DNA of 64,000 nucleotides, taken from assembly GCA_016180645.1 (NCBI GenBank), contig JACPAV010000002.1, positions 174,628-238,627 of the forward strand, in the 5' to 3' direction. Both the position numbers and the translations under genes were made by a program. This DNA is from Nitrospirota bacterium. Its GTDB lineage: Bacteria; JACPQY01. Shown one piece after another: positions 15,450-46,224 of the stretch. Below the pieces are notes generated by a model that saw only the letters and a list, made by a program, of their open reading frames with translations, was not told where the DNA came from and searched no databases. Every line of letters begins with the position of its first letter. Position 1 is the stretch's first letter.

Positions 15450-16211
15450 GTGGCGCCGCTAGGAAAGAAGTCCGTACTGGTCCTCATACCCGCCCGAGGC
15501 GGGTCCAAAGGCATTCCCCACAAAAACATCGTTGATCTTTGCGGGTACCCCCTTCTGGCCTACGCGATCGCCGCCGCGCGAAAGAGCGCTTTCAACCCGC
15601 GGATCCTCGTCACCACGGACGACGAGGAAATCGCGAGAGTCGCGAGGTCGTTCGGCGCCGATGCGCCCTTTCTTAGACCCGCCGAACTGGGCCAAGACAC
15701 AAGTCCTCTCACGGTGGCCCAACTCCACGCCCTCCATTGGCTTCGCGAGCACGAAGGCTACAGGCCGGCGGCCACCGCCACCGTGCTTCCGACGTATCCG
15801 TTCGTTCGCGCGAAGACGATCGATCAGGTGATCGGGCATGCGTTGAAAGGTATGTCGGCCCGAACGGTGATTCGCACTCCGGCATCGAGTCGCCTCTTTT
15901 TTCTCGAGGATGAAGGAGTATTGAGCCGCGTCCAATTCCGAACGCGATCCAAGCGGTGGTATCTGGGTACGGCCGCCGCGGGGGCCGTGCGGTACTTCCC
16001 CTCCTTTGATCCCGCGGCCATGAACGAGCGCGAGATCCTCCGTCTCATGAAACGATATGCGACCCGTCTCCGGAACTTGGGGATCAACACCCGAGGGCAT
16101 GCCACCATCGAGGTGACTTGGGTTGAAGCCGTGGACATCGATACGCCTCGTGAGCTGACCCTGGCCCGAAAACTGATCGCCTCGGGCGTAAGGCCTGCCC
16201 TTCTTCAATGA
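15450..16211 (+). CDS. CMP-nonulosonate cytidylyltransferase, NeuA family (second copy)
   Basis: VLIPARGGSKGIPHKNI motif; GTG start; 253 aa. Confidence 0.75.
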   Translation: MAPLGKKSVLVLIPARGGSKGIPHKNIVDLCGYPLLAYAIAAARKSAFNPRILVTTDDEEIARVARSFGADAPFLRPAELGQDTSPLTVAQLHALHWLREHEGYRPAATATVLPTYPFVRAKTIDQVIGHALKGMSARTVIRTPASSRLFFLEDEGVLSRVQFRTRSKRWYLGTAAAGAVRYFPSFDPAAMNEREILRLMKRYATRLRNLGINTRGHATIEVTWVEAVDIDTPRELTLARKLIASGVRPALLQ

Positions 16212-24110: not shown

Positions 24111-25148
24111 TCATAGCCGGCGATACTCGACCATGAGGGCATCCACGATCTTGCGGGGGTGCCAGTGCTGAACCATGAACTCCCGCGAGTTCCTTCCGGT
24201 TTCCATGCGATGGTCCCCATCCGAGATCAGCCGCCCGAGCACGGTTTCAAGCTCGGCCGAATCCCCCGCGGCCAGCCAAGGCAGTGCATCGGTTCCCGCA
24301 AACCGCGCCGCCTCCGAGCGGGTCCTCTCCGCCAGACGGGCAATGGTGGGGGTGCCTTGGCTCAAAGCTTCGAGCGACGACACGCCGAAGTATCCCTGCA
24401 AATGATCGAAAAAGATGTGGCAGTTTCGCTTCCGCTCCAGGCACTCGGAGTGGGGGACGTTTTCAATGAGGTCGAGGTCCAGGAAACCGTTGTATCGGGC
24501 CTTGAGACCCGCGTAGACGCGCACCAGGAGTTCGGTGTCCTTGATCTCCTTCTTGGTCGGCGACTGACCGATTCTTACTCGTGACTCGTGAGTCGCGACT
24601 CGTGACTCGTGGGGAAGGTAGAGTGGATCGTCGATGGGAACGAGATTGGGTATCCACGTGGCCTCCGGAAGAAAATCCAAGAGGTCCGGCGTGCTGACCA
24701 GAAATGTTCTTCGAGAACTCTGCGCGCGGAATCGAGCCGGATCGGATCGAAGGGGCTCGCCATGTTGATGGTAGATCGCCCTTTTCCCCTTCATGAAATC
24801 CTTGGCCCTGAAAGGACCCAGAGGCGTTTCCTCATCGGCAAAGGCGTGAAAGTGAAAGAGATCGGCATCGCGGAGAACCTGTTCGATCTCCTCCACGTTC
24901 GAGGTTCGATGACCTCCACGAAGGGGGAAATGCCGCGGGAGGGCAGGAGCCCGGAGCGGCCGTTCGACATCCGACGATTCCGGAACATGGATGTCCTTCC
25001 TGTAGTTGAAGTTGTATTTGACGGCCGTGGTCACCAGACGGCAGGAATGTTCGGTGTGACGGTTGATCGCATCGGTGAAGGCGATCCCCATCCCGGCGGG
25101 ATCATTGGTGCAAATCATGAGGATGCGCATCCCAATTCCCCTCGGCAC
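24111..25148 (-). CDS. glycosyltransferase-like protein carrying an in-frame heptanucleotide repeat
   Basis: C-terminal SSLEALSQGTPTIA region resembles a GT-B donor-binding motif; contains HESRVATHESRV encoded by the tandem heptamer array. Confidence 0.5.
   Translation of the reverse strand: MPRGIGMRILMICTNDPAGMGIAFTDAINRHTEHSCRLVTTAVKYNFNYRKDIHVPESSDVERPLRAPALPRHFPLRGGHRTSNVEEIEQVLRDADLFHFHAFADEETPLGPFRAKDFMKGKRAIYHQHGEPLRSDPARFRAQSSRRTFLVSTPDLLDFLPEATWIPNLVPIDDPLYLPHESRVATHESRVRIGQSPTKKEIKDTELLVRVYAGLKARYNGFLDLDLIENVPHSECLERKRNCHIFFDHLQGYFGVSSLEALSQGTPTIARLAERTRSEAARFAGTDALPWLAAGDSAELETVLGRLISDGDHRMETGRNSREFMVQHWHPRKIVDALMVEYRRL
24577..24611. repeat. tandem heptanucleotide array (ACTCGTG x2, AGTCGCG, ACTCGTG x2) inside a coding region
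   Basis: Five adjacent 7-nt units read directly; central GAGTCGCGACTC is palindromic; encodes HESRVATHESRV in frame. Confidence 0.7.
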
Positions 25149-25152
25149 GTCC

Positions 25153-27099
25153 TCAGAGAAAGCGGCTCAGGCGGCTGAGGGCCTCCAGCGCCCGTTTCCC
25201 TTTCCACTGGTGGCCGCGCCAGATCTCGGGGACGAACCCCTCGTCGTAGTCTTTCAATTCGCCGAATACGGCTTCGAAGGGAATCTCACCCTCGCCGATT
25301 TGGACTCCCTCCCCATGCACGCCATGGGCGTCCGCCACGTGCAAGTGGCGAATGTAGGGCCTCACCGCGCGGACGAAAGAAACAATGTCCTTGCCGACGT
25401 GCTTGCAGTAGAGCTGGGCATGCGACGTATCCAAACAGATGTTGAACTTCGTTTCCGCGCAAAACGCGGCGATCTCTTCGGGATTCAGAAAAAGGTAGCC
25501 CGTCCATTGGCCCCCGAAATACCACGGAAAGGGCGGCAGGTTCTCGAGGAGGACTTCCACTCCGGTCGTGTCAAGCCGGCGGAGGGAGTCGATGAATCGG
25601 CCCGACATTCCATTCGCGCCGGGATATCCATTCAGACTCATCCCCCCCGGATGGAGGATCACTTTGGGCTTCGACCCGTGATTGAAGGAAGGACCCATCT
25701 TCCGAGCCATGTTGATCACGCGCTGAGCCACGGAAATCGAGCACTGGCGGGTGGCCATGTCTTTCGATGCCAGATCGAGAATGACGTCTCCGTCGTACTC
25801 GGGGGCATGAACGACAAGGTTCTGGGGAAATCGACCCGGGGGCGGCTCGATCTCCAAGTCGCGGTCCGTCATGTGGAATTCGAAGAGGTCGGGCTTGTAT
25901 TCGACAAACTTGTCCACGTCCGTCACCCGGACGATCAAGCCCCACTTCTTGGAGCTGACGGGGCGGGCCATCGGCGCCTCCGGCTCCCTCAGATCGTCCT
26001 CCACAAAAAGCTCACCCGCCATCATGTCCCGATGTGCGGTTCTCCCGATGAGCTGGTCGGCCAGATGGGGCGAGAGGCCTTTCCCCGGCCCCATGACGGT
26101 GATTTTGTCCTGCGTGATGACCTCGCCGATCTTGATATCGGCGGCGGCCACGAGGCTCTTGGCGAACAGCTCCCGATTGAGCTGTTCTCCCTGAGTCATT
26201 CGCTTGACGCCGGTGCCCAAGCACTCCTCCACAACGCGTATCCCATGAACCAAGCGGGCAAATTCATCTTTCTCGAGACTGACTTTGTGGTCGGGCCCCC
26301 ACGCCGTCCGATCATGCGTGAAATGTTTTTCGACAATCCGCGCGCCGCGCGCGACGGCGGCGAGTGAAACTTCGATCCCGCGGTCGTGCCCCGAGTAGCC
26401 TACGGTGACCCCGAACTTCTGGAGTTCATCCATGACTTTCAGATTCACTTCCCGGTAGAGGGCCGGATACAGGCTTACGCAATGGAGAATGGCGAATTCG
26501 GCTCTTTTCGATTTGAGGAAGTTCACCGTGCCTTCGATTTCCGGCATGAGCGACATCCCGGTGGAGAGAAGAAGCGGTTTCCCATGGGCGGACATTCTCG
26601 CCAGCAGCGGCCAATTGGTGAGATCCGCCGACGAGACCTTGAAGGCCTGCACCCCCAGTTGGGCGACAAAGTCCACGCTGGGCGGATCGAAGGCCGTGCA
26701 CAGAAGTTCGATTTCCAGCTCCCGACAGCGTTCGGCCAGCCGCGAGTAGGCTTCTTCATCCAGCTCCACCCGGCGGAGGATCGGGATCATGTACTGAAAG
26801 TGTCTCTCGTGCTGGATCACCTGCTCCAGCACGTCGGAGGTGTAAAGGGATTTCAGATCGCGCTTTTGGAACTTGACGGCATCGGCGCCTGCCGCCTTGG
26901 CGTCCTCAATCAGGCGAAGAGCAAGGTCCTCGCTCCCATTATGATTGATTCCTATTTCGGCGATGACGAAGGTTCGCTGCCCTTCGCCGATGAGCCGCCG
27001 GCCTATCCTAAGAGGATCCGGCACGCTCCGCTCCAGCCAAGGAAGGCGCGGTCCCTCACGCCATGGGGCCACGACGGCCCCGCGCCGACAGGCGCACAT
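25153..27099 (-). CDS. NeuB-family nonulosonate synthase fused to a C-terminal xylose-isomerase-like TIM-barrel domain
   Basis: N-terminal FVIAEIGINHNGS and SAF-like IKIGEVITQDKITVMGPGKG of NeuB-type synthases; C-terminal about 300 aa with LLENLP, DTSHA, HLHVAD, GEGEIPF resembling sugar-phosphate isomerase/epimerase TIM barrels; 648 aa. Confidence 0.65.
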   Translation of the reverse strand: MCACRRGAVVAPWREGPRLPWLERSVPDPLRIGRRLIGEGQRTFVIAEIGINHNGSEDLALRLIEDAKAAGADAVKFQKRDLKSLYTSDVLEQVIQHERHFQYMIPILRRVELDEEAYSRLAERCRELEIELLCTAFDPPSVDFVAQLGVQAFKVSSADLTNWPLLARMSAHGKPLLLSTGMSLMPEIEGTVNFLKSKRAEFAILHCVSLYPALYREVNLKVMDELQKFGVTVGYSGHDRGIEVSLAAVARGARIVEKHFTHDRTAWGPDHKVSLEKDEFARLVHGIRVVEECLGTGVKRMTQGEQLNRELFAKSLVAAADIKIGEVITQDKITVMGPGKGLSPHLADQLIGRTAHRDMMAGELFVEDDLREPEAPMARPVSSKKWGLIVRVTDVDKFVEYKPDLFEFHMTDRDLEIEPPPGRFPQNLVVHAPEYDGDVILDLASKDMATRQCSISVAQRVINMARKMGPSFNHGSKPKVILHPGGMSLNGYPGANGMSGRFIDSLRRLDTTGVEVLLENLPPFPWYFGGQWTGYLFLNPEEIAAFCAETKFNICLDTSHAQLYCKHVGKDIVSFVRAVRPYIRHLHVADAHGVHGEGVQIGEGEIPFEAVFGELKDYDEGFVPEIWRGHQWKGKRALEALSRLSRFL

Positions 27100-27144: not shown

Positions 27145-27759
27145 CTACAGCTGAATGACACAAATCCCTCCCTGTTCCAGCCCCTTGACCTGTTCCAGGA
27201 TCTCGTTCTTGCGCGCGAAGGAGGTGATGATCACGCCGTCCGGGCTCAGCTCCCTGATGGAATCCGGACGCGAGACCTTCCATTGCCCGAAGGATTGCCC
27301 CCATTTGCGTTCATCGTTGTCCACCACGCCAACAATCTCCACCGGAACGTTGCGAAGGGCCGCGCTGACCACTTCTCCCGTTTCCGAGGCCCCAAACAGA
27401 ACCACTCGGCGGATATGCCCGTTCAGATGTTTCTGTACCGCCCGCTGGATGGCGCCCTTGATGTACGAATAAGCCCGCACCAGCTCGACGGACGACTCCA
27501 TCAGAAAATTCATCCTGGCTTCGTTCCCCAGTGGAGTGACTTGGTACGTCATCCTCTTTCTTGAGAGTTCCTCCTTGGCAATCCACCCCTTCCGGATGCC
27601 TTCGTCGATGTAGTAATTGACTTGGGCGCTGGAGACGCCGACCAGTCCGGACAACTTGTGTTGGCTCAAGTTCGGATTCTCGCTGAGAAAATTCAGGAGA
27701 TAGAGCAACTTAAACTTGTGTGTGGGTTTCCAGCATGAGAAGCTGGAGAATTCTTTCAT
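27145..27759 (-). CDS. winged-helix transcriptional regulator with C-terminal Rossmann/CoA-binding-like domain (Rex-like architecture)
   Basis: N-terminal wHTH-like segment (LSQHKLSGLVGVSSAQVNYYI) and C-terminal RVVLFGASETGEVV...VGVVDNDERKWG. Start set to ATG (MKEFSSF) at 27759; first gene after the AT-rich gap. Confidence 0.45.
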   Translation of the reverse strand: MKEFSSFSCWKPTHKFKLLYLLNFLSENPNLSQHKLSGLVGVSSAQVNYYIDEGIRKGWIAKEELSRKRMTYQVTPLGNEARMNFLMESSVELVRAYSYIKGAIQRAVQKHLNGHIRRVVLFGASETGEVVSAALRNVPVEIVGVVDNDERKWGQSFGQWKVSRPDSIRELSPDGVIITSFARKNEILEQVKGLEQGGICVIQL

Positions 27760-27842
27760 GTCTATTCGCAATCCTTCCTTAGTTGCGGCCCTTTCGGCAC
27801 CGGGGATTATCCCCCGGATGCTATCCTTAGCAATTCCTTTGA

Positions 27843-28120: not shown

Positions 28121-29983
28121 CTACGCGCGAGAGGAGCGCATGCTCTGCTGCAGTTCAAACAGGGCATGCTCAACCAGCCTTCCCATCAACGGGATGTCTC
28201 CCACAAGATTCACAAGGAATGCCTGCCCCGATTCCAGGTGCCGCGCAAGCTGCTCCGAGCCCGACGTTGATTCGCGCCAGGGCCGAAGAACCCGCCGGAC
28301 CAAGGGTTTCGCCACCGCTGAAATCAGCCTGGAGGGAGCCGCCCGATCGGCCACATCGCTGACGAAACTGCCGATCCGCAGCCTTCGTTCCTCCAAGATC
28401 GAGGCGGCGTCTCCATCCGCGGGCCGGCGCCCTATCTCCCCCCACCTCTCGAAGAGATCTCCCATCCGGGCTGAAAATGAGTGGAGTGCTGTTCTTTCTT
28501 CCACAAGGGAGTCGTACAGCCGGCACAGGCTCTCGCGATCCACGGGGGCATCCGCGAGAAAATTCCCGGAAAGATCTCCTCCATTCCAAGCGCTGTCCCG
28601 CGGCAATGCGGCGACCTCGGACCGCAATTCGTCCAGCGTCATCCGCACCGATCCTCCGGTCTCACCACCCGCCACATCACTCAACACGACTTTGAATCCC
28701 CCCCCCTGCCGGTAGCCCGCCCCCATCTCCAAAAGGAAGCGCCTATCCGCCAATCGGTCGTACGCGCTGGGATCGGAAGCATCGGCCGGGTCGAGGTCGA
28801 CCCAGAACGTGCGGTCAAACCATGCCCCGCAAAGAACCGCGGCATCCACGGGGGCGGAGAGACCGAGAGGAAGGTGGAGAGCAGTCGAATCACCCGACAC
28901 CACCCTCTCCATCCATGCGCCAAGATCATCCTGCGCGCGCGCATACACCACCGGTCGCTCAGGGGAATCTTTGAAGGCCAGGGGATCGGCGTCCAAGGGG
29001 AGCACGGCCAGCGCCGGGTCACGAGGGGAACGGGCATCCGCCCCGAAGCGCAAGCGCGGTTGGATTCCCGATGCCGTGCCGGACGTCGCCGTCCCCTCCG
29101 CTCCGCTCCACGGACGGCGAAATGAATTTTCATAGGGTCCTGTCGCCGCGACCACGGTTCGCGCTTCGATCGCTCCCATCAGATCCGCCGGAAGACGACC
29201 GGCGCAGCCGCTGTTCAACACCACCGCGTTCAGCCAGACCTGCCGATCGGGCCGGGGCTGGACCCCGCGGCCTTTCCACAGCCACGGCAGATTCTCGAGC
29301 GAGCGGAGCAGGATCCGACGGGATTCGGTTGCCGGGATTTCCACCTGTCGCCTGAACAGGGACAACCGGCAAGCCGCTCTGCCTTGGATTCTCGCCACCC
29401 TGTCGGTGAACGATTTTGCATAGCCGGGAAGAATCAACCACGAGACCCGGAGGCCGATCCGAAGTGAAGCGTCCATCGCCTTGTTGAAGTGGGGTTCATC
29501 GTGAACGAGTACCAACCGATCTGGCACAAAGAGGCTTCCGTAGTCAATCCGGCCCATGAGGTCGGCCAGCAGGGCTCGGTCCGGCTCATACAGGATGACC
29601 TTCGCGGAGGTCCGGTCCAGAAGTTCGCGCACGTGGTAGCCCAAGCCAAGACCCACCACGAGGACCAACTCCGCACCGGTATCCACCGCCGTCTGGACAA
29701 GTCCCTTGGCCTCGAGCACAGGATGGAAGGGGCTGTGGAGGAATTCGCTCTTGTACTTGAGCGTCGGCGGTCCGGCGCGGGAGGGCAGGATGTCAACCGC
29801 CCCGACTTCACCATCGCCAAGCTCCGGGATCGAACCTCGGACAACTCGGCGGAACGCTTCGGAGTTGCTCGCCCAGCGGAGCCGGCGACGCGGGGATCCG
29901 GTCGCCGTTCCGTTGACCGTCTCCGGCGCGGAGCCGCCGGGGAGGCGTTCAGCGAGCGGCAGGTTGCCGGCCGAGCGGCTCAT
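28121..29983 (-). CDS. Maf-like (motility-associated-factor / DUF115 type) putative nonulosonate transferase, paralog 2
   Basis: ELVLVVGLGLGYHVREL aligns with VDVVVMMGVGLGYDLKE of the adjacent paralog. Start uncertain: track start 30052 overlaps the upstream gene; ATG at about 29983 chosen. Confidence 0.4.
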   Translation of the reverse strand: MSRSAGNLPLAERLPGGSAPETVNGTATGSPRRRLRWASNSEAFRRVVRGSIPELGDGEVGAVDILPSRAGPPTLKYKSEFLHSPFHPVLEAKGLVQTAVDTGAELVLVVGLGLGYHVRELLDRTSAKVILYEPDRALLADLMGRIDYGSLFVPDRLVLVHDEPHFNKAMDASLRIGLRVSWLILPGYAKSFTDRVARIQGRAACRLSLFRRQVEIPATESRRILLRSLENLPWLWKGRGVQPRPDRQVWLNAVVLNSGCAGRLPADLMGAIEARTVVAATGPYENSFRRPWSGAEGTATSGTASGIQPRLRFGADARSPRDPALAVLPLDADPLAFKDSPERPVVYARAQDDLGAWMERVVSGDSTALHLPLGLSAPVDAAVLCGAWFDRTFWVDLDPADASDPSAYDRLADRRFLLEMGAGYRQGGGFKVVLSDVAGGETGGSVRMTLDELRSEVAALPRDSAWNGGDLSGNFLADAPVDRESLCRLYDSLVEERTALHSFSARMGDLFERWGEIGRRPADGDAASILEERRLRIGSFVSDVADRAAPSRLISAVAKPLVRRVLRPWRESTSGSEQLARHLESGQAFLVNLVGDIPLMGRLVEHALFELQQSMRSSRA

Positions 29984-31817
29984 TTTCCAGCGGGGTGTCC
30001 TCAATATCGGAAAGCGCCTCCTCGATTCGGGGCGCCAGGATCTCGCAGCCATCCACAGCCTGGGAGACCCACTCCTCCAGTCGTTTGAGCGTATCCTCGT
30101 AATGAACCGTCCGCCCTCCGGCGCATCCCCTGACGCACCACTCGGCCACCAGAGATTCTCCCATGACGTGGTAGTTGAGTAGGAAGCTGGACGAAACGTA
30201 GTCGGAGATGTCGTCCAAGAGCGCCTCCACGAGGGCCTGCTCGCCGAACATCCCCGCCAATCGATGAATCGTGGTCTCGCCGCTCCGGTACCGCTGGACG
30301 CGTTCCATCTGTTCTTCCAGCAGCGGCCTGAGTTCCCGCACCCGAAACGCTTCGGCGCGCAACAGCTCCCTCAGCGCTCTCAGCTTGTCTCCATGCAACA
30401 GCGGCGACATCGTCCGACGGAAAAAGGATTTGTCCACCTTCCGCCCGAGATATCGGGGAGCGGCCTCTTCGAGCGGAACGTGCTGGAACCCCTCAATCCA
30501 GACGCCGTCGCCGGTGGCGTTGACAAGTGTAATGCCCCGGGCCGACGTCCGGGCGGCCAATTCGAACCAGTTGACCGTTTTCTCGAACTGCCTCCACGTG
30601 AGCACTTCGCCGCCCTTGTATCCCTTCACGGTGGTGAACTGGGGATCATCCTTCAGCGCCTTCGGGGGGGGCAAGGCATGCTCTCTCGAAACGCCCCGGG
30701 CGTGGGTCCGCCCGCCGGGAAAGGAGAGATCCTGCCCGGCCATGAGAATCCGATCGCATCCGAGCCGCATGGCAAAGCTGAAAGCCGTGGTGGACACGGA
30801 ATAGGCATGCGGCAACACGGCGTTGAATCCCGTCAGGTTGAAAAGCGGACGCTCGAAGGGGCTGGAGGATTCGACGTACAACCAGATCCGCGTGAGCGGG
30901 AGGTCGAACAACTTGGGGCACACCTTGAGGGGGAAGATCGCGGAAAGGGTTTCCGGAAGGTCCACCTCATCGAAGAAATCCGTCACATCGATCGCCTCAT
31001 CGCTGAAGACAAAGTCCGGGACCACTCCAGACCGTAGGAGGGGTTTGAGAGACGCATCCGTGGCCAGGAGGATCGCGCGTTCCTGCACCTCCTTCAAAAG
31101 CGGCAGATGACCGGCGAGGGACGGTCCCGCACCGATGATGATGGCCGGCAACCCCATCCCGCTCCCCTCCAATGCGGCCGCCATCGGGTATTCGACGACC
31201 CGATGGAGATTCAGGAGGTTGGTCCCCACCCATTCCCGTGCGCGGTTCTTCCAAATGCCGAGGCACATCCTCGAATTCTCGATGTCCACCGTGAAATTGG
31301 CGACAAGTTCCCGCACCTGCTCGGGGAAGAGGATCTCGTGCGCGGCGCCCACGAAAATTCTTCCCTCCAGCCCCAGCCGGAACCAGACGCGGAACGCCAG
31401 GGCCAATTCCTCCGATTTGCGGGTCAGGAACACGCGGTCCTGACGGAAGAGGTCCGAAAAGTCGTGGATCATCAGCGCGACTTTCAACAGGGGGAGTTCC
31501 GGTTCGAGAATGAGCAGGTCCTTTCCGGTCTCCCTCGATGCCTCCTTCAAATCGTAGCCGAGGCCGACTCCCATCATGACCACAACATCCACTCCCTCGC
31601 TCCTGAAGGCCATCCAGCGGGCCCGGGCCTCGGCCCCCGGATGTTCACGGCTGTGGAGAAGCACTCCCTTCCACGAGAGCGTCCACTGCCCGTTCGCGCT
31701 CTCCTCCAGGAGATGCAGCGGTGCTTCAGCTTCCTCAAGCTCCGCGGCCAGCTCCGGAAAGCGGGGCCGGAGGGCCGCCAGGTTCTTGTGAAGGCGCTCG
31801 AGGCTGGGCTTAAGCAT
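29949..31817 (-). CDS. Maf-like (motility-associated-factor / DUF115 type) putative nonulosonate transferase, paralog 1
   Basis: LPAIIIGAGPSLAGHL (GxGPSL) motif characteristic of Maf/MptE-like glycosyltransferases. Start set to ATG (MLKPSLERL) at 31817. Confidence 0.55.
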   Translation of the reverse strand: MLKPSLERLHKNLAALRPRFPELAAELEEAEAPLHLLEESANGQWTLSWKGVLLHSREHPGAEARARWMAFRSEGVDVVVMMGVGLGYDLKEASRETGKDLLILEPELPLLKVALMIHDFSDLFRQDRVFLTRKSEELALAFRVWFRLGLEGRIFVGAAHEILFPEQVRELVANFTVDIENSRMCLGIWKNRAREWVGTNLLNLHRVVEYPMAAALEGSGMGLPAIIIGAGPSLAGHLPLLKEVQERAILLATDASLKPLLRSGVVPDFVFSDEAIDVTDFFDEVDLPETLSAIFPLKVCPKLFDLPLTRIWLYVESSSPFERPLFNLTGFNAVLPHAYSVSTTAFSFAMRLGCDRILMAGQDLSFPGGRTHARGVSREHALPPPKALKDDPQFTTVKGYKGGEVLTWRQFEKTVNWFELAARTSARGITLVNATGDGVWIEGFQHVPLEEAAPRYLGRKVDKSFFRRTMSPLLHGDKLRALRELLRAEAFRVRELRPLLEEQMERVQRYRSGETTIHRLAGMFGEQALVEALLDDISDYVSSSFLLNYHVMGESLVAEWCVRGCAGGRTVHYEDTLKRLEEWVSQAVDGCEILAPRIEEALSDIEDTPLENEPLGRQPAAR

Positions 31818-32877
31818 ATCCGCCGCCCCTGAAGAGGGAGGCCTCCTTGAGAACGTCGCGCCATTGGGCGACGAAGCGGTCCATGGAAAACTGACTCTCA
31901 ACCGTCCGGCGCGCCTCCCCTCCCATCCTCGCCGCCTCTTCGGAAGAGTCGAGCAACTCGCGGAGGCGAGATCGTAGCGCGCCGACGTCCGACGTAATGT
32001 ATCCATTCACGCCGTTCCTGATCGGCGAGGACGTATTCCACGTCGAGAGGACCGGCGTGCCCGCGGCCATGGCCTCCAACATGCAAAGCGTGTACCCGTC
32101 CTCCAGCCCCTCCACGGTCGTGTTCACGAACAGACGCGCGCTTCGATAAATATCCTTCAGTTCATCGAACGACGAGGCCGATTCACTTTTCACGCCCTGG
32201 TCGTTATCCCCCACCACGCGGAGCGGAAATCCGTCGCAAATGGCCAGGAGGTCCCGCAGGCCCTCTTTCGCGCGGGAAAGGCCGTTGCACACCCTCAGCG
32301 CGCTCGCCACTTCGCCCGTGTGGTCGGGAAAATCGGAAATGTCGATGCCGTGCACAATCACGCGCGAGGGGCATCGCAGCCCCCAGTTCTTCCGCTTGAA
32401 CTCCGAGATAAAAACAAAGAAGACATTTCCGGATTTCAGGAAAAGCCTCTGCAGAGATCTCAGGAATTCCCGCTTCCGGAGGGCCTGGCCGAGAAGGTCC
32501 GTTTCGGAATAGGGGAACGCATTATGGAACACGAGCACTTTCCCGGAAGGGCTCGCGATGCACGCCAGGAGATCCTCCACATCGTGGCAAACGATCGCAT
32601 CATAGTAGGCGTCTCGGCTCCGTTCCTTCATGTCGCTCTCGGAGATCAGCCGGGCGTTGGGAGGAAGCGGGCGAAGTCGGGGATTCCACGCGCGCACGTA
32701 GCCCAAGCTGGGAATGTGCCGTTCGCAGATATCGAATTCGTGTCCCGTCCTTGCGAGGTTGCACAGATACGGTTCGTGCCGGCAGAAGGTCAGTATCCGG
32801 AGGGTTCGACGCGAGGCCCCGATGACGTTTCCATTCGTCGTCCCGGAAGCGAAGCGGAGGGGGCGCGTCGTACCCAT
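31810..32877 (-). CDS. glycosyltransferase, GT4-like
   Basis: CMLEAMAAGTPVLST motif. Start set to ATG (MGTTRPL) at 32877, adjacent to the upstream stop. Confidence 0.6.
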   Translation of the reverse strand: MGTTRPLRFASGTTNGNVIGASRRTLRILTFCRHEPYLCNLARTGHEFDICERHIPSLGYVRAWNPRLRPLPPNARLISESDMKERSRDAYYDAIVCHDVEDLLACIASPSGKVLVFHNAFPYSETDLLGQALRKREFLRSLQRLFLKSGNVFFVFISEFKRKNWGLRCPSRVIVHGIDISDFPDHTGEVASALRVCNGLSRAKEGLRDLLAICDGFPLRVVGDNDQGVKSESASSFDELKDIYRSARLFVNTTVEGLEDGYTLCMLEAMAAGTPVLSTWNTSSPIRNGVNGYITSDVGALRSRLRELLDSSEEAARMGGEARRTVESQFSMDRFVAQWRDVLKEASLFRGGGYA

Positions 32878-34204: not shown

Positions 34205-34225
34205 CCCCTCCTTACGAAGGAGGGG
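34205..34225 (-). other. intercistronic stem-loop CCCCTCCTT-ACG-AAGGAGGGG spanning the upstream stop codon
   Basis: Perfect 9-bp inverted repeat with 3-nt loop; contains the TAA stop of the 944-aa gene and lies about 15 nt upstream of the SD of the next gene; one arm is itself SD-like. Confidence 0.4.
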
Positions 34226-37046
34226 AACCTCCTTCGTCCAGCCGGCGAGGAAAGACATCTGCCCCCTCCTCCCCTTTGTGCGGGGAGGCCGGGGGGGGTG
34301 GAGCTTCCGAGACTCGAACCAAGAGCCTCCGCGCGCCCCCGTGCCCCGGGTTCAGGGCCAGGAGCCGCTTGATTTCATCCATGCAGTCGGTTTCCTGCCC
34401 CGTTTCGGAAAGGAAAAGGATCAGGAGGTACCGGACCTCGTAGTCGGCGGCATGGAGGGCCAGGTAGTTCCTCAGGTGGCGAAGGGCCTCGCGCTTGTGT
34501 TCCATGGAAGCGGCACACGAGGCGAGGCCGATGACCGCCCGGCGATGATCACCGTTCCCGTCGATGAGGCCGCAGAAAATATCGCGGGCTCGGGCGTGGT
34601 CTTTCAGTTGAACCCGGAGCGCTGCAATTTCAACCAGCCGATCCGGGTCGCTCCCGGCTTCGCGGGCCAACTCGTCGACTTCGTGAGATACCTTGCCGGC
34701 GCCTTCCGACACGATCCTCACCTGAAGCAGCCCCACGCGACCGGCGAAGGATTCAGGGTCCACCGCGAGGAGGGATTCGAAGGCCCGCGCCGCTTCGTCC
34801 ATCCTCGCCGCCGCCAGCTTGCCCTCTCCGAGCAGCAAGTAGTACTCGCATAGCCGTCGCTCATGCAGCGAGAAGCGGGAGGAGACATGGGAAAGCACCT
34901 GAAAGGCCTTCGCAAGTTTCTTGGAACCCAGCAGGGCTCGCACCAGGGCCAGGTGGGATTCCGGCTTAGTTTCGTCGAGTCGAACGGCTTCCTCGAACTT
35001 CTTGGCCGCCTCATCCCACTGGGCCGAGTCCAGATGGGCTCGGCCTTCCGAGAGCAGGCGGGCAATGACCTGCTGCCTCGGGCGCGCCCGGAGGAGGTAC
35101 TGGAACGTCCTCATTTCATCGGCTGCGTTTTCCGCGTCGCTCCGCAGCTCCGCGGCAACCTTCTGAAGGCCCGGCAGGATGGCGTGCGGCGGCGTGGTAC
35201 GCGCGCCCATTTCCTCGATCACCCAGCCGGTGGTTTCGAACAGGCTCCGAATTTCCTGGAGCGTGAAAAATCGCACGTGGTCCCGATCCAGAATCCCCTC
35301 CTCCGCGTAGGACCATCGTCCGGACAGGAGTTGGCCGATCACGGACCAGTGGCCGACGTTCGGGACACTGGATACGACGCACCCCTGGGGCGTGAGCCGG
35401 GCCTGAAGGCCTTCGAGCAGGCCCCACGGGTCGTCAAGGTGCTCCAACACGTCGGACAGAACGATACAATCGAAGGTCTCGTCGCCCAGCGTCTTCGGGT
35501 CCCGCGCGTCCCCCGTGATCACCCGGTCCAATCGGCGCGCGGCCTCTGCCGCTGCTTCTTCCACCATCTCCACTCCCGTGATATGGACCCACGGTCGTCG
35601 GGTTTTCAGGTACGCACCGAAGCCGCCGGTGGCGCATCCGACATCGAGGATCCGTTCGGCCTCCCGCGGGATGAGCGGCTCGACTTCTTCCCTCGAATGC
35701 GAGTAGTAAACGAATGACCTCCCGCGAAAACTGCGGGTCTCCATCATCCCCATGGCCAGATGGGCCGTCCGCTCCGCCGCCTTGCCGTCGTCCATGTAAT
35801 TCAGTTCGTAGATGGAACGAGGACGCTTCAGCTCGAACTCCTGCGCGAGGGCGGCATCGTACAGTACGCGCCGTATCGCCTCGGCCAGGCCCGGAGCGTC
35901 CGTCACCTGGAGCACCGGATCGTGCGGCTGAAAAAGGGGATCGTGATAGCGCACGACCGGGAGGTTGATCACCGGTTTGCCGCACAAGATGCCGGCGACC
36001 CCCAGGAGGGAGTCCGCGCACACGACGGCATCCGAAACGTAGACGATGGGCTCGGGGTTCGCATCTCTTTCCACGATGCGGACGCGGGCCACTCCGGCCG
36101 AATCCGCCTTCCGGCGATACCACTCCTTTCCCTTCTGATCCGAGGGATGCAGCTTCACCAACCAGTCGCAGGATTCCGACTCCAAAGCCCGCGCCGCCTG
36201 GAGGAAGAGATCGTAGGCGCGCTCGACGAGAGCCGGGTCCGAGTGCGTGGACAGGCCGTGGGTCCAGGTCGAACAGTAGAGAACGATTTTCCGATCCGGC
36301 TGGAGATCGAACTTCTGCCGGAGAGCCGCCGCCCGTCCGCTGTTCCGTAGAGAATGATAGACGTCCCAGTAGGGGGCGCCGGTCACCACGATATTCTTAG
36401 GATCGTTTCCCCACCGAAGATACCACTGCCGGGTCCGCTCCCCCTGCACGGCGATCCGGTCCGCCCAGATCCGATCGTGGGCGTTGTGGAAAAGCGCCCC
36501 CATGCCGTGGAGCATGTGGAGCACGGGGATACCCCGTTTCCTGAAGAAGAGCGCGAGGGTCTTTCCATCGAGTAGGACGTCTTCCCAAAGGAGGGCGAGT
36601 TGGGGGCGATATCGCTGGACGGCCTGGTCGAGCATTTCAACCAGCAGAATTTGCTCCCGGATGCGTTCCCGCTTGAAGTGTTCCGCCGCCAATTGGGCGG
36701 CCACAACCCACGGTTCGGGCCAACCGAGATTCGTGGGCCAGAATCCGGGGAGTGGACGTTTCTCGTAGTCGTCCAAGATGCCCGCCATGGAAGGATTGAG
36801 CGACGCCTCGCGCACGTCCTTTTCCAGCTCGGGGACAACGGACACGCAATCCACTCCCACCTTCGTGAGCGTGGAAAAGATGTTTTCGCCGTAGACGAGA
36901 TAGGTGCTCGGACGGATCCGCTCGATTTCCTGGATCACCGGCAGGTACGCCGTGCCCACATAGGTGAAGATGGCGGGCTTGTCAACCACGGGTCGCCTCG
37001 CGTGGGGGGGGGGAAGAAATGGGAACAAGCTTGGAAAAGACGGCAA
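34212..37046 (-). CDS. multidomain protein: TagF-like (HP motif) transferase domain + class I SAM methyltransferase + TPR repeats
   Basis: CSTWTHG and LVKLHPSDQ resemble CDP-glycerol glycerophosphotransferase motifs; RILDVGCATGGFGAYL methyltransferase motif I; C-terminal TPR-like helical repeats; 944 aa. Start uncertain; G10 tract near 5-prime end. Confidence 0.5.
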   Translation of the reverse strand: MPSFPSLFPFLPPPHARRPVVDKPAIFTYVGTAYLPVIQEIERIRPSTYLVYGENIFSTLTKVGVDCVSVVPELEKDVREASLNPSMAGILDDYEKRPLPGFWPTNLGWPEPWVVAAQLAAEHFKRERIREQILLVEMLDQAVQRYRPQLALLWEDVLLDGKTLALFFRKRGIPVLHMLHGMGALFHNAHDRIWADRIAVQGERTRQWYLRWGNDPKNIVVTGAPYWDVYHSLRNSGRAAALRQKFDLQPDRKIVLYCSTWTHGLSTHSDPALVERAYDLFLQAARALESESCDWLVKLHPSDQKGKEWYRRKADSAGVARVRIVERDANPEPIVYVSDAVVCADSLLGVAGILCGKPVINLPVVRYHDPLFQPHDPVLQVTDAPGLAEAIRRVLYDAALAQEFELKRPRSIYELNYMDDGKAAERTAHLAMGMMETRSFRGRSFVYYSHSREEVEPLIPREAERILDVGCATGGFGAYLKTRRPWVHITGVEMVEEAAAEAARRLDRVITGDARDPKTLGDETFDCIVLSDVLEHLDDPWGLLEGLQARLTPQGCVVSSVPNVGHWSVIGQLLSGRWSYAEEGILDRDHVRFFTLQEIRSLFETTGWVIEEMGARTTPPHAILPGLQKVAAELRSDAENAADEMRTFQYLLRARPRQQVIARLLSEGRAHLDSAQWDEAAKKFEEAVRLDETKPESHLALVRALLGSKKLAKAFQVLSHVSSRFSLHERRLCEYYLLLGEGKLAAARMDEAARAFESLLAVDPESFAGRVGLLQVRIVSEGAGKVSHEVDELAREAGSDPDRLVEIAALRVQLKDHARARDIFCGLIDGNGDHRRAVIGLASCAASMEHKREALRHLRNYLALHAADYEVRYLLILFLSETGQETDCMDEIKRLLALNPGHGGARRLLVRVSEAPPPPASPHKGEEGADVFPRRLDEGGSPPS

Positions 37047-37319: not shown

Positions 37320-38003
37320 TCACTGTTCGATGCTCCTCACCAGCACGAATGCCTCTGCCGCGCCCAGCCCACAGTGGATGCCCCACTTCTTCGCATAAAC
37401 ACGCAACGATTCCGGCGACCGGGGATGGCCGTTGGCGCCGACCTCGCCCCGGTACTGCAAGAAGGCGTGAATCTTGGTTTCCAAAGTCCGGGAAATATCG
37501 CTGAAGGCGTTCGGCGTGAACGTGTTCTGCGCCCCGTAGATGTTCCACTCGGTCGAAGAGGGCGTTTCAAACGCGAAGATCCTTCTTACGGTTTCCCCGT
37601 GAATCGGCCGGAAGGCGGTCAACACAGCCTGATAGGTAATGCGGTGGTCCACGTTCAGGTCTCCCCAGAAATGGGTGTAGACGACTTCAGGGCGAAACTG
37701 TTTCTTGATCCGTTCAATGGTCTTGACCATGTCGAGGAGAGACATCGTATCGAAACGATTGTCGGGCAGGCCGAGGAAATGCACCCGCTCCACCCCCAGA
37801 ATGTCCGCGCTCCGGCGGCAGTACGTTCGAAGCGCCGAGACCAGCCGCTTGGGTGCGTGTTCCCGTCGTTCGAATCGCGCCGTGGCGCCTTCTCCCAGGA
37901 TGACCGTGTGGATCCGGTGCCCCTTGCGGGCCAGGCGGGCCATGGTGCCGCCGCAGCCAAGCACTTCATCATCCGGATGGGCGGCAACGACCAATACATT
38001 CAT
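37320..38003 (-). CDS. PIG-L/LmbE family N-acetyl-sugar deacetylase
   Basis: MNVLVVAAHPDDEVLGCGGT with the HPDDE zinc-binding motif; ATGA overlap with upstream gene; 227 aa. Confidence 0.7.
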   Translation of the reverse strand: MNVLVVAAHPDDEVLGCGGTMARLARKGHRIHTVILGEGATARFERREHAPKRLVSALRTYCRRSADILGVERVHFLGLPDNRFDTMSLLDMVKTIERIKKQFRPEVVYTHFWGDLNVDHRITYQAVLTAFRPIHGETVRRIFAFETPSSTEWNIYGAQNTFTPNAFSDISRTLETKIHAFLQYRGEVGANGHPRSPESLRVYAKKWGIHCGLGAAEAFVLVRSIEQ

Positions 38004-38752
38004 GCGGACACTCCCGATCGGATGATTTCCAGCGCCCGCGGACCCTCGTTGAGCATCAGATCGATGACAGACATGTTCGGAATGAAGGGATCGAAGCCTT
38101 GCCGATACGTAGGGTGCTGATAGTCTTGAAAAATAACCGCAATTTTCTCCCTATTGAAGGCCTCAAGGTCCATGTAGAGCCGTCCATGGGTACCCGCGTA
38201 GTATGTATCAGCTTGGAAATGCTTGCAGATCGAGACAAGCCGATGTGTGGCTAGTTCCTTTACATTCAATCGGTCGGTTGGACCGATTGAATCGGTCGAT
38301 CGGACCGATTCGATCGATCGATCGGTCAGTCTCAAGTCTGAACTCCTATACGTTCGAGGGGTAAGATTCATGCATCGAGAGACAACCTCGATAGACTTGA
38401 GACAGAGCAGGGACAGGTTCGAGCCTGACTCGGCGTAGATCGAACCGATGGGGGCTTCATACTCGGAGTAGAACGGGGCCTTCCTGTAGTTTGACTCGAT
38501 CGCTTTCAGGTGCTTCCGCCGCCAGGGCGAGCGCTCGTCCGTTTGGGTTTCGTTGATGGTTTGTCCGAAGTGGTGCTGGACCGGCACGGTGAGCCATTGC
38601 CATCCCTCGGCCGTGCGGATCTTGTTCCGGTTCTGCCAATCGTTCTTCGTGTATTGCACATCGTCGAGAAACACGAACACATCGGCACGGTCCATCTTCT
38701 CGAAATACCCGAGCCACGGGAGGTACTGCGGCTGGTGGATGGAGACGATCAT
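38000..38752 (-). CDS. WbqC-like family protein, paralog 1
   Basis: MIVSIHQPQYLPWLGYFEKMDRADVFVFLDDVQY matches the WbqC-like N-terminus. Start set to ATG at 38752 (ATGA overlap); carries an about 19-aa in-frame insertion relative to paralog 2. Confidence 0.65.
   Translation of the reverse strand: MIVSIHQPQYLPWLGYFEKMDRADVFVFLDDVQYTKNDWQNRNKIRTAEGWQWLTVPVQHHFGQTINETQTDERSPWRRKHLKAIESNYRKAPFYSEYEAPIGSIYAESGSNLSLLCLKSIEVVSRCMNLTPRTYRSSDLRLTDRSIESVRSTDSIGPTDRLNVKELATHRLVSICKHFQADTYYAGTHGRLYMDLEAFNREKIAVIFQDYQHPTYRQGFDPFIPNMSVIDLMLNEGPRALEIIRSGVSA
38265..38330. repeat. array of alternating-orientation 8-mers GACCGATT/AATCGGTC forming overlapping perfect palindromes, in frame inside WbqC-like paralog 1
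   Basis: CAATCGGTC-GGTTG-GACCGATTG, GACCGATT-G-AATCGGTC, AATCGGTC-GATCG-GACCGATT and GACCGA-TCGATCGATCGA-TCGGTC read directly; encodes TDRSIESVRSTDSIGPTDR. Confidence 0.7.
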
Positions 38753-41117: not shown

Positions 41118-41154
41118 CACCCGGCTCCCCTGTCGCATGACACCTGACGCATGA

Positions 41155-41844: not shown

Positions 41845-41855
41845 GGTGGACACTT

Positions 41856-42941: not shown

Positions 42942-43005
42942 CCTGCGTATAACAGGTAACAGTATACTTTATGAGGATCAACCCGTAGGCTAATAAAGTA
43001 TACTG

Positions 43006-45389: not shown

Positions 45390-45398
45390 TGCGATAGC

Positions 45399-46220: not shown

Positions 46221-46224
46221 TCCG

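What the first reader, a model, noticed from the sequence alone, without database searches (positions are those of the whole stretch)
25153..27099. NeuB-type nonulosonate synthase fused to a xylose-isomerase-like TIM-barrel domain
The N-terminal about 350 aa carry NeuB/SAF signatures. The C-terminal about 300 aa carry motifs of the sugar-phosphate isomerase/epimerase TIM-barrel family (LLENLP, DTSHA, HLHVAD, GEGEIPF). A single polypeptide coupling nonulosonate synthesis to an isomerase/epimerase-type domain is an unusual architecture; it may epimerise or dehydrate the substrate or product. It is separate from the standalone NeuB at 46225-47277.
Basis: partly seen in the sequence, partly recalled or inferred. 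Interest (0 to 1): 0.5.

Follow-up and report, generated by a model that had tools for sequence, protein, structure and literature searches.

The report
Sialic-acid synthase fused to TIM barrel
One real gene joins a sialic-acid-type sugar synthase to a metal-binding barrel domain; the fusion is common in microbes and was already noted in Serratia (where the gene is needed to make the sugar KDN), and the extra domain probably removes a phosphate from the new sugar rather than isomerising it.

Summary
Window 25153-27099 (-) is one uninterrupted ORF (likely start GTG 27024, 623 aa) with NeuB, SAF and AP_endonuc_2 (xylose-isomerase-like TIM barrel) domains, and all quoted motifs are present.

The architecture is not rare. 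Thousands of database proteins in many phyla have it, with or without an N-terminal CBS domain, and a split two-gene form exists. It has been noted before: Serratia marcescens KL1/KL2 NeuB carries an extra COG1082 domain and is required for KDN capsule synthesis (PMC9000132). The function of that domain was left open.

By profile search the barrel is closer to MJ1311 and endonuclease IV than to ketose epimerases. Seven of the nine endonuclease IV metal ligands are kept in the window type.

The fusion's commonest neighbour is a CMP-ulosonate cytidylyltransferase. No NeuC- or PseG-type hydrolase lies nearby. The closest TIM-less NeuB relatives carry a KdsC/KDN-9-P-phosphatase gene within 1.5 kb in 42 of 57 cases, against 0 of 38 fusions.

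My best reading (about 0.45) is a bifunctional ulosonate-9-phosphate synthase/phosphatase.

Verdict: a new member of a known but biochemically uncharacterised kind, of moderate interest.

The parts
25153..27024 (-). Coding sequence of the NeuB-SAF-TIM fusion protein (623 aa from GTG 27024; the longest ORF extends to ATG 27099; stop codon 25153-25155)
   Evidence: P0001 is 100% identical, 623 aa; GGAGCGGAG upstream of the GTG
26203..26913 (-). NeuB (PEP-aldose condensing) TIM-barrel domain, ORF residues 63-299. Carries KFQKR (76-80), LHCVS (205-209), GYSGH (234-238) and EKH (257-259)
   Evidence: Pfam PF03102 E 4e-79. All N. meningitidis NeuB catalytic and metal residues are conserved. Foldseek places 1xuu first
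25987..26160 (-). SAF / antifreeze-like domain, residues 314-371. The position of NmNeuB Arg314 is Gly337, with Lys340 nearby (GPGKG)
   Evidence: Pfam PF08666; alignments
25945..25986 (-). Inter-domain linker, residues about 372-385, poorly conserved and of lower model confidence
   Evidence: pLDDT 65-72 for these blocks
25156..25944 (-). C-terminal metal-binding (beta/alpha)8 barrel, residues about 386-648 (AP_endonuc_2 superfamily, MJ1311/endonuclease-IV-like). Conserved residues: E407, D414, H431, H483, E519, D557, H560, H585, H587, D590, E597, E625, H630
27145..27771 (-). Conserved upstream partner: a 208-aa winged-helix plus small Rossmann-like (PglD-N-like) protein, probably a regulator
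   Evidence: It is 33% identical to the cassette protein of L002 and present in 9 of 38 fusion loci
24111..25130 (-). Conserved downstream partner: a protein of about 339 aa of unknown family (faint GT-B C-terminal-half signal). Its start lies 22 nt after the fusion's stop codon
   Evidence: It is 43% identical to the L002 cassette protein and present in 7-8 of 38 loci. No Pfam, NCBIfam or PDB sequence hit; weak Glycos_transf_1 signal in homologues
15450..16211 (+). Candidate CMP-ulosonate cytidylyltransferase for the product: the best window match to the cassette enzyme. It is not adjacent; three more CTP_transf_3 genes lie at 255-1061, 4797-5582 and 45399-46220

Best explanation
The gene encodes a bifunctional enzyme of 3-deoxy-nonulosonic (sialic-acid-like, probably KDN-type) acid synthesis.

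Step 1 (well supported). The N-terminal NeuB+SAF module condenses phosphoenolpyruvate with an aldose.

Step 2 (inferred). That aldose is a phosphorylated sugar taken from central metabolism, such as mannose-6-phosphate, as in animal NANS and the Bacteroides KDN-9-P synthase. It is not a free sugar released from a nucleotide sugar.

Step 3 (inferred; the core of the proposal). The C-terminal barrel is a metal-dependent phosphoesterase related to MJ1311 and endonuclease IV. It removes the terminal phosphate from the ulosonate-9-phosphate. In the closest TIM-less relatives this job is done by a separate KdsC-type HAD phosphatase.

Step 4 (supported by context). The free acid is activated by a CMP-transferase and passed to glycosyltransferases of the surrounding island.
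For: Module 1. NeuB E 4e-79. All NmNeuB catalytic and metal residues are retained: E25, K53, Q55, K129, S132, S154, Y186, S213, H215, E234, H236, D247.

Barrel. A profile of the subfamily hits MJ1311 at 2.6e-19 and endonuclease IV at 4.6e-12 to 1e-3, but ketose 3-epimerases only at >=2e-4. Seven of the nine endonuclease IV Zn-ligand positions are kept in the window type: H431, H483, E519, D557, H560, H587, E625. Non-nuclease phosphodiesterases exist in this superfamily (CbiR, PMC7733943).

Context. CTP_transf_3 lies within 10 kb in 28 of 38 fusion loci and is often the adjacent gene. No NeuC/WecB or PseG homologue sits beside any fusion, although the same seeds do find them beside canonical NeuBs in L056, L090 and the window's own Pse cluster.

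Displacement. The most similar TIM-less NeuBs (40-45% identity) have a KdsC/KDN-9-P-phosphatase gene next door (KdsC 1e-29; BT1713/3e81 4e-28). The gene is within 1.5 kb in 42 of 57 cases against 0 of 38 fusions (Fisher p 1e-14). The four fusion loci that hold a HAD gene have it beside a second, TIM-less NeuB. No TIM barrel occurs in the HAD-linked loci.

Substrate type. The fusion's NeuB domain scores higher against database-verified animal Neu5Ac-9-P synthases (median 188 bits) than against NmNeuB (140), CjPseI (106) or the window's own standalone NeuB (158). It shares GYSGH with NANS. The Arg314 present in the three free-sugar-type NeuB/PseI sequences compared is absent from the fusions and from NANS.

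Genetics in a relative. The S. marcescens neuA + neuB(+COG1082) pair is required for KDN, with no neuC or phosphatase gene described (PMC9000132). The known KDN route runs through KDN-9-P (PMC6200933).

Modularity. A split form exists, NeuB-SAF followed by the TIM gene with an overlapping ATGA.

Against: Two endonuclease IV ligands (D229, H231) are Gly in this family. In the CBS-type half of the family H483 and E519 are Asn and Gln, so an endonuclease-IV-like multinuclear site is not universal.

The HAD/TIM complementarity is largely a contrast between two clades, so the p-value overstates independent events. The grouping of fused, HAD-linked and NANS sequences in an NJ tree has weak bootstrap support (21-37%).

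The KFQKR/GYSGH motifs also occur in one NeuC-linked NeuB (L056).

The Desulfobacterota-type cassette contains a Gmd/LegB-like SDR. If that enzyme is a 4,6-dehydratase it would give a 6-deoxy sugar that cannot carry a 6-phosphate.

In this window no CMP-transferase is adjacent.

I could not obtain the Serratia sequence, so I could not verify that it belongs to the same subfamily.
Confidence: 0.45

Rival explanations
1. One reading: the barrel is a sugar or sugar-phosphate isomerase, epimerase or dehydratase. It would remodel either the aldose before condensation or the nonulosonate afterwards.
Against: Profile E-values favour MJ1311 and endonuclease IV by 8-15 orders of magnitude over epimerases. 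E519 is Gln in 120 of 120 CBS-type fusions and in about half of the representatives, which is hard to reconcile with a conserved two-Glu epimerase mechanism. The NCBIfam epimerase and isomerase scores are far below their cut-offs (12-18 bits against 305-353). The minimal neuA + neuB-TIM pair suffices genetically for KDN in Serratia, and KDN needs no epimerisation beyond what central metabolism supplies. This reading does not explain the HAD/TIM complementarity.
Confidence: 0.2
2. The barrel is a hydrolase acting before condensation. It would free the aldose from a nucleotide sugar, a sugar-1-phosphate or a sugar-6-phosphate, making it a functional analogue of NeuC, LegG or PseG. It would then hand the free sugar to the NeuB domain.
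For: No NeuC or PseG homologue lies in any of the 38 fusion loci. The metal site is endonuclease-IV-like. The Desulfobacterota/Planctomycetota cassette carries a Gmd/LegB-like extended SDR that should act on an NDP-sugar. Fusion would help channel a free reducing sugar.
Against: Many loci, including the Chloroflexota type, Ensifer and this window, have no NDP-sugar-modifying enzyme next to the fusion. The nearest TIM-less relatives use a KdsC-type phosphatase, an enzyme class whose characterised members act on the ulosonate phosphate after condensation. The NeuB domain resembles phosphosugar-using NANS more than free-sugar NeuB, and lacks Arg314.
Confidence: 0.2
3. The barrel has some other role: it is regulatory or structural, or it catalyses a reaction unrelated to the ulosonate pathway.
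For: MJ1311, the closest solved relative, has no assigned function. CBS regulatory domains are fused to many family members.
Against: About a dozen polar residues at barrel-end positions are invariant over hundreds of sequences, which is typical of a catalytic metal site. This barrel subfamily is found almost only fused to, or next to, NeuB.
Confidence: 0.1
4. Assembly or frameshift artefact: in reality these are two separate genes.
For: A natural split form exists elsewhere (L007).
Against: The reading frame is continuous. An identical 623-aa protein is in NCBI. Thousands of independent homologues share the architecture.
Confidence: 0.01

Closest known systems
Serratia marcescens KL1/KL2 capsule NeuB (Anderson et al. 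2022, PMC9000132)
   Same: Described as a pfam03102 NeuB with an additional COG1082 'sugar phosphate isomerase/epimerase' domain. It is encoded next to a neuA cytidylyltransferase, with no neuC described, which matches the commonest context found here. It is required for sialic acid synthesis; the strains make KDN plus about 5% Neu5Ac.
   Different: I could not retrieve the sequence, so membership of the same barrel subfamily and the type (H/E or N/Q, with or without CBS) is unverified. It sits in a capsule locus of an enterobacterium, not a Nitrospirae island with Maf genes. In this window the nearest cytidylyltransferase is about 9 kb away. The paper assigns no function to the extra domain.
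Bacteroides thetaiotaomicron KDN-9-P synthase plus KDN-9-P phosphatase (BT1713, PDB 3e81), and animal NANS plus NANP
   Same: The proposed chemistry is the same: PEP + aldose-6-phosphate gives ulosonate-9-phosphate, then the free acid, then the CMP-acid (PMC6200933). The fusion's NeuB domain is more similar to verified NANS than to the free-sugar NeuB and PseI enzymes compared. The closest TIM-less relatives have a BT1713/KdsC-type gene adjacent.
   Different: In those systems the phosphatase is a separate HAD-fold protein. Here the candidate phosphatase is an unrelated (beta/alpha)8 metallo-barrel fused to the synthase. Substrate and product are untested.
MJ1311 of Methanocaldococcus jannaschii (PDB 3wqo, 'D-tagatose 3-epimerase-like protein')
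   Different: It is standalone and of unknown function. It keeps D-E-H where this family has G596-E597-G598.
Endonuclease IV (Nfo) and CbiR, phosphodiesterases of the AP_endonuc_2 superfamily
   Same: Same fold. Seven of the nine Zn-ligand positions are conserved in the window-type barrel. CbiR shows that the superfamily includes small-molecule phosphodiesterases (PMC7733943).
   Different: The equivalents of D229 and H231 are Gly. There is no evidence of DNA binding. The NCBIfam CbiR hit is negligible (15 bits against a cut-off of 105). Half of the family has Asn/Gln at two ligand positions.
Neisseria meningitidis NeuB and Campylobacter PseI (free-sugar nonulosonate synthases)
   Same: Same two-domain NeuB+SAF fold (TM about 0.8 on the target) and the same catalytic and metal residues.
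   Different: Only 29-32% identity. The fusion scores below the NCBIfam NeuB and PseI equivalog cut-offs. The Arg314 equivalent is Gly. T56-H57 is replaced by K-R and D214 by G. These enzymes have no C-terminal barrel.

Membership tests
NeuB / sialic-acid synthase family (PF03102 + SAF) | NeuB domain above the Pfam gathering score, followed by a SAF/antifreeze-like domain | tested here: met
   NeuB 265.8 bits (cut-off 22.1); SAF 35.2 bits (cut-off 21)
NeuB / sialic-acid synthase family (PF03102 + SAF) | Catalytic, PEP-binding and metal-binding residues of NmNeuB (E25, K53, Q55, K129, S132, S154, Y186, S213, H215, E234, H236, D247). The residue roles are from memory; the numbering was checked against the 1xuu alignment | tested here: met
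   All are conserved in 38 of 38 fused sequences, including the window
NeuB / sialic-acid synthase family (PF03102 + SAF) | Arg314 of the SAF domain (its importance in NmNeuB is recalled from memory; PDB 4ipi and 4ipj are R314A and R314K mutants) | tested here: not met
   Gly337 in the window protein. The fusions have GPGKG or SPGQG, and verified NANS has GEPKG. NmNeuB, CjPseI and the window's standalone NeuB have Arg
N-acetylneuraminate synthase / pseudaminic acid synthase equivalogs (NCBIfam TIGR03569, TIGR03586) | Score at or above the curated equivalog cut-off | tested here: not met
   351.3 against 399.65 (NeuB_NnaB); 243.3 against 340.25 (PseI)
Xylose isomerase-like TIM barrel superfamily (PF01261, AP_endonuc_2) | Pfam match above the gathering score, and a (beta/alpha)8 fold matching solved members | tested here: met
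Ketose 3-epimerases / sugar-phosphate 3-epimerases (DTE, DPE, UlaE) | Glu-Asp-His-Glu metal tetrad in which both Glu act as catalytic bases (mechanism from memory) | tested here: inconclusive
   E519, D557, H587 and E625 are present in the window type. E519 is Gln in 120 of 120 CBS-type fusions and in 72 of 129 representatives
Ketose 3-epimerases / sugar-phosphate 3-epimerases (DTE, DPE, UlaE) | Significant family-level sequence match | tested here: not met
   NCBIfam fructoselysine 3-epimerase 14.7 bits (cut-off 305), L-ribulose-5-P 3-epimerase 11.7 (317), hydroxypyruvate isomerase 17.9 (353). Profile against PDB gives epimerases at >=2e-4 but MJ1311 at 2.6e-19
Endonuclease IV (Nfo) | Nine residues forming the trinuclear Zn site (E. 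coli H69, H109, E145, D179, H182, H216, D229, H231, E261; list from memory, motifs read in the alignments) | tested here: not met
   Seven of nine are kept (H431, H483, E519, D557, H560, H587, E625). D229 and H231 correspond to G596 and G598. The CBS type also changes H483 and E519
Endonuclease IV (Nfo) | DNA-binding groove and AP-endonuclease activity | not testable with these tools
   No model coordinates were accessible. The context is entirely glycan biosynthesis
KdsC / KDN-9-P phosphatase (HAD type C0) | HAD Rossmannoid fold with the DxD motif | tested here: not met
   The C-terminal domain is a TIM barrel. Only a functional analogy is proposed
NeuB+COG1082 fusion of S. marcescens KL1/KL2 (KDN synthesis) | NeuB domain plus an additional COG1082/AP_endonuc_2 domain in one polypeptide | tested here: met
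   compared with the description in PMC9000132
NeuB+COG1082 fusion of S. marcescens KL1/KL2 (KDN synthesis) | Sequence orthology to the Serratia protein | not tested
   The sequence was not obtainable
NeuB+COG1082 fusion of S. marcescens KL1/KL2 (KDN synthesis) | Adjacent neuA (CMP-transferase) gene | tested here: not met
   In the window the nearest CTP_transf_3 is about 9 kb away and on the opposite strand (15450-16211). It is met in 23 of 38 related loci within 3 kb
NeuB+COG1082 fusion of S. marcescens KL1/KL2 (KDN synthesis) | The product is KDN | not testable with these tools
   Needs biochemistry or glycan analysis

The most novel reading that the evidence does not exclude
The C-terminal barrel defines a previously unrecognised class of sugar-acid phosphate phosphatase, built on the endonuclease IV/MJ1311 branch of the xylose-isomerase-like TIM-barrel superfamily. 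On this reading it displaced the KdsC-type HAD phosphatase non-orthologously and became fused to the synthase. The result would be a single-polypeptide 'aldose-6-P + PEP to free KDN-like nonulosonate' enzyme used by thousands of bacteria and some archaea. It would also give the first functional lead for MJ1311-like proteins.
Probability: 0.4. Interest if true: 0.55.

Novelty: new member of a known kind. Interest (0 to 1): 0.38.

Why it matters
If the barrel is the missing phosphatase, a two-gene module (neuA plus the neuB-TIM fusion) would be a complete route from central metabolites to a CMP-activated KDN-type sialic acid. That would explain how Serratia bloodstream isolates and many environmental bacteria decorate capsules, flagella or EPS without NeuC or a HAD phosphatase. 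It would add a new small-molecule phosphatase activity to a superfamily usually annotated as 'sugar isomerase/epimerase' or 'AP endonuclease'. It would also correct a widespread generic annotation, 'N-acetylneuraminate synthase family protein'. For this particular window the gene itself is an ordinary member of that large family.

Tried and rejected
- **Frameshift or two-gene artefact:** rejected.
- **Full-length Foldseek:** dominated by NeuB, DAHP synthase and KDO8P synthase barrels and uninformative for the C-terminal domain. I therefore modelled the C-terminal domain alone.
- **Model coordinates:** not available offline, so I could not inspect metal-site geometry or the inter-domain interface.
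- **NeuC/WecB, PseG and Epimerase_2-like genes next to fusions:** none found, even at E 0.01.
- **Gmd-like SDR of the cassette:** absent from this window.
- **Serratia NeuB sequence:** attempts through cluster look-up, plasmid tblastn and a proteobacterial-query homologue search all failed.
- **Literature:** searches for NeuB with a xylose-isomerase-like domain, for MJ1311 and for a BT1713 paper returned nothing useful. My statement that MJ1311 conserves the endonuclease IV ligands comes from reading the alignment plus memory.
- **NJ phylogeny:** weak support for joining fused, HAD-linked and NANS sequences (21-37%), so I do not rest the argument on it.
- **KFQKR/GYSGH motifs as a strict phosphosugar marker:** rejected, because the NeuC-linked L056 also has them.
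- **Downstream 339-aa partner against PDB:** no hit.
- errored because of wrong coordinates.
Full report
**Observation.** The window holds one uninterrupted minus-strand ORF at 25153..27099 (648 aa). An identical protein of 623 aa is in NCBI as 'MAG: N-acetylneuraminate synthase family protein [Nitrospirae bacterium]' (P0001). That length corresponds to a GTG start at 27024, which is preceded by GGAGCGGAG. Pfam finds NeuB (residues 63-299, E 4e-79), SAF (314-371, 2e-8) and AP_endonuc_2, the xylose-isomerase-like TIM barrel (428-638, 5.5e-27). AlphaFold2 with 63 homologues models both halves well (mean pLDDT 88.9, pTM 0.72), joined by a lower-confidence linker. It is not a frameshift artefact, because all 120 best-listed homologues share the length and the NeuB+AP_endonuc_2 domain order, most with SAF too.

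**How common is it?** The architecture is not rare.
- The first search gave 2522 hits at E<=1e-10.
- A scan of one genome per GTDB species confirmed 591 relatives. Full-length fusions occur in Desulfobacterota, Chloroflexota/Anaerolineales, Planctomycetota, candidate-phyla-radiation bacteria, Elusimicrobia, Verrucomicrobia, Bdellovibrionota, Fibrobacteria and Actinomycetota (Phycicoccus sonneratiae, Pseudoclavibacter helvolus). They also occur in Desulfamplus magnetovallimortis and the haloarchaeon Natronococcus roseus.
- A longer CBS-NeuB-SAF-TIM variant (about 750 aa) saturates a second search, with 7996 of 8000 candidates at E<=1e-30. It includes Xanthomonas campestris, Comamonas aquatica, Parvularcula marina, Methylobacillus and marine Synechococcus.
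- The barrel on its own defines a small subfamily: 665 clusters at 50% identity out of 1.84 billion proteins. It occurs almost only fused to NeuB, as TIM-CBS, or standalone at about 275 aa.
- In the one standalone case with readable context, the barrel gene follows a NeuB-SAF gene with an overlapping ATGA (L007).

**Prior knowledge.** Anderson et al. 2022 (PMC9000132) report that S. marcescens KL1/KL2 capsule loci begin with neuA and neuB. [quoted passage not shown] They show that neuB is required for sialic acid production and that the strains make KDN, with about 1:20 Neu5Ac. The extra domain's role was left open, and I found no follow-up. I could not retrieve the Serratia sequence, so equivalence rests on the architecture as described.

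**The NeuB half.** All residues that I recall as catalytic, PEP-binding or metal-binding in N. meningitidis NeuB are conserved in all 38 fused sequences examined. The numbering was verified on the 1xuu alignment. The residues are E25, K53, Q55, K129, S132, S154, Y186, S213, H215, E234, H236 and D247. The protein is nevertheless not a standard NeuB or PseI.
- It falls below both NCBIfam equivalog cut-offs.
- T56-H57 is K-R and D214 is G.
- Arg314 is Gly337, within GPGKG. NmNeuB, CjPseI and the window's own standalone NeuB all keep the Arg.
- My recalled human NANS sequence proved 96-97% identical to entries named N-acetylneuraminate-9-phosphate synthase, so I then used those verified sequences. 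The fusion's NeuB domain scores a median 188 bits against them. It scores 169 against Leptospira NeuB, 158 against the window's standalone NeuB, 140 against NmNeuB and 106 against CjPseI.
- NANS shares GYSGH and also lacks Arg314.

A profile of the subfamily is more discriminating. MJ1311 scores 2.6e-19 and M. tuberculosis endonuclease IV 4.6e-12. Other endonucleases IV score about 1e-6, and epimerases only >=2e-4. In those alignments seven of the nine endonuclease IV zinc ligands have counterparts: H431, H483, E519, D557, H560, H587 and E625. D229 and H231 correspond to G596 and G598, which flank the invariant E597.

Across the whole family there are two flavours.
- Window type: H483/E519/N520, in 120 of 120 sequences.
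- CBS type: N483/Q519/T520, in 120 of 120 sequences.
- Representatives are split about evenly between the two.
- The universal core is E407, D414, H431, W526, D557, H560, H585 (sometimes Y), H587, D590, E597, E625, W627 and H630.

E519 corresponds to one of the two catalytic Glu of ketose 3-epimerases (mechanism from memory). Its replacement by Gln in half of the family argues against a conserved epimerase mechanism. The same variation also means that a strict endonuclease-IV-type trinuclear site is not universal. Small-molecule phosphodiesterases do exist in this superfamily (CbiR, PMC7733943).

**Genomic context.** The window is a roughly 48-kb minus-strand glycosylation island. It contains:
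- a pseudaminic-acid-like gene set at 37320-48290, including PseB, a PseC-like gene, a PseG-like gene and the standalone NeuB;
- two Maf paralogues;
- many glycosyl- and methyltransferases;
- four CTP_transf_3 genes.

The fusion is flanked by two conserved partners. Upstream is a winged-helix/Rossmann-like protein (27145-27771). Downstream is an unknown protein of about 339 aa (24111-25130). In Desulfobacterota and Planctomycetota the cassette runs wHTH, a Gmd/LegB-like SDR, the fusion, the unknown protein and a CMP-transferase, often beside Maf. This window lacks the SDR.

Over 38 non-redundant fusion loci, the only widely shared neighbour is the CMP-transferase. It lies within 10 kb in 28 of 38 loci and within 3 kb in 23 of 38, and is often the adjacent gene. 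The same pairing occurs on an Ensifer canadensis megaplasmid. Chloroflexota loci add a GFO/MocA oxidoreductase, an adh_short dehydrogenase, PAPS synthesis, sulfotransferases and a KpsS-like protein. They carry no NDP-sugar dehydratase or aminotransferase. No NeuC/WecB or PseG homologue lies beside any fusion, even at E 0.01. The same seeds do detect them beside canonical NeuBs in L056, L090 and the window's Pse cluster.

**Key comparative result.** The genome scan also returned the most similar TIM-less NeuBs (40-45% identity, about 290 aa). Their adjacent gene is a KdsC/KDN-9-P-phosphatase-type HAD enzyme (KdsC 1e-29; B. thetaiotaomicron KDN-9-P phosphatase 3e81 4e-28).
- Such a gene lies within 1.5 kb of 42 of 57 TIM-less NeuBs and of 0 of 38 fusions (Fisher p 1.4e-14).
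- The four fusion loci that contain a HAD gene have it beside a second, TIM-less NeuB.
- No barrel of this subfamily occurs in HAD-linked loci.
- The known KDN route is Man-6-P + PEP to KDN-9-P, then KDN, then CMP-KDN. It is documented in B. thetaiotaomicron, a haptophyte and humans, whereas most bacteria condense a free sugar (PMC6200933).

There are three caveats. The contrast is largely between two clades. An NJ tree gives the fused clade 53-60% bootstrap and the HAD-linked clade 99-100%, but their union, with NANS included, gets only 21-37%. The KFQKR/GYSGH motifs are not exclusive to these clades (L056).

**Interpretation.** Shown here:
- a genuine, conserved NeuB-SAF-barrel fusion;
- an intact synthase active site;
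- a conserved polar, metal-type site in the barrel;
- an association with CMP-transferases;
- the absence of NeuC/PseG- and HAD-type partners.

Inferred:
- The synthase uses a phosphorylated aldose.
- The barrel hydrolyses the resulting ulosonate-9-phosphate, taking the place of the KdsC-type phosphatase. I put this at about 0.45.

Rivals:
- a hydrolase that frees the aldose before condensation, which would suit the cassettes holding a 4,6-dehydratase-like SDR (about 0.2);
- some other role (about 0.1);
- an artefact (about 0.01).

**Verdict.** The finding is real. It is a new member of a large, already annotated family that has been noted in the literature, and the function of the second domain has not been established. 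Interest is moderate. The value lies in a concrete, testable hypothesis for that domain, not in the rarity of the architecture.

Noticed in passing
window 1-48300: The whole stretch is one minus-strand glycosylation island. It holds a pseudaminic-acid-like set (PIG-L 37320-38003, WbqC x2, a PseC-like gene 41856-42941, formyltransferase 43006-43893, a PseG-like gene 43697-44716, CMP-transferase 45399-46220, NeuB 46225-47367, PseB 47274-48290). It also holds two Maf paralogues, four CTP_transf_3 genes, two B12-binding radical SAM enzymes, an HpcH/HpaI aldolase, a SIS protein and GFO/MocA and adh_short oxidoreductases. I identified no flagellin gene among the ORFs I annotated in the window.
   Followed up: partly
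window 27145-27771 (-): A 208-aa protein with a winged helix (MarR/EPS-regulator-like) plus a small Rossmann-like domain resembling the N-terminus of NeuD/PglD. It is a conserved upstream partner of the fusion in 9 of 38 loci, and may be a sugar-nucleotide-sensing regulator.
   Followed up: partly
window 24111-25130 (-): A conserved protein of about 339 aa lies directly downstream of the fusion (43% identical to the cassette protein in Desulfatiferula). It has no Pfam, NCBIfam or PDB sequence match and only a faint GT-B C-terminal-half signal in homologues. Its function is unknown.
   Followed up: partly
window 28121-30052 and 29949-32006 (-): Two Maf-like (MptE-like / Maf_flag10_N) paralogues whose longest ORFs overlap by about 100 nt. 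The first matches only the N-terminal Maf domain, and weakly.
   Followed up: no
window 34212-37046 (-): A 944-aa multidomain protein combining a Capsule_synth/Glyphos_transf-like region, a SAM methyltransferase and TPR repeats.
   Followed up: no
TIM domain, ORF residues 483 and 519-520 (window 25540-25545 and 25651-25653): The barrel subfamily has two correlated flavours: H483/E519/N520 (window type) and N483/Q519/T520 (CBS-bearing type). This suggests a change in metal number or preference with an otherwise invariant core.
   Followed up: partly
L014, L016, L020, L025, L026, L028, L029, L038 (Chloroflexota/Anaerolineales): The fusion sits with an ATP-sulfurylase/APS-kinase, sulfotransferases, adh_short, GFO/MocA, a CMP-transferase and a KpsS-like 544-aa protein. 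This hints at sulfated ulosonate-containing polymers; compare the sialylated and sulfated EPS of granular sludge (PMC10483923).
   Followed up: partly
L031 (Natronococcus roseus); L017, L023, L027 (candidate phyla radiation): The full-length fusion is present in a haloarchaeon and in several ultra-small CPR bacteria, which implies wide horizontal spread.
   Followed up: no
L052 10001-12751: A TIM-less NeuB lies immediately upstream of a NeuB-TIM fusion (a tandem pair). The barrel there matches in two overlapping pieces, which may reflect a frameshift or an assembly error.
   Followed up: no
L004 10001-11869: An isolated copy of the fusion lies beside a DDE transposase and an integrase fragment, with no glycan genes nearby.
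   Followed up: no
L041 10001-11302: A Rhodospirillaceae NeuB that clusters with the fused clade but retains only about 77 aa of barrel-like sequence. It may be a decayed fusion.
   Followed up: no
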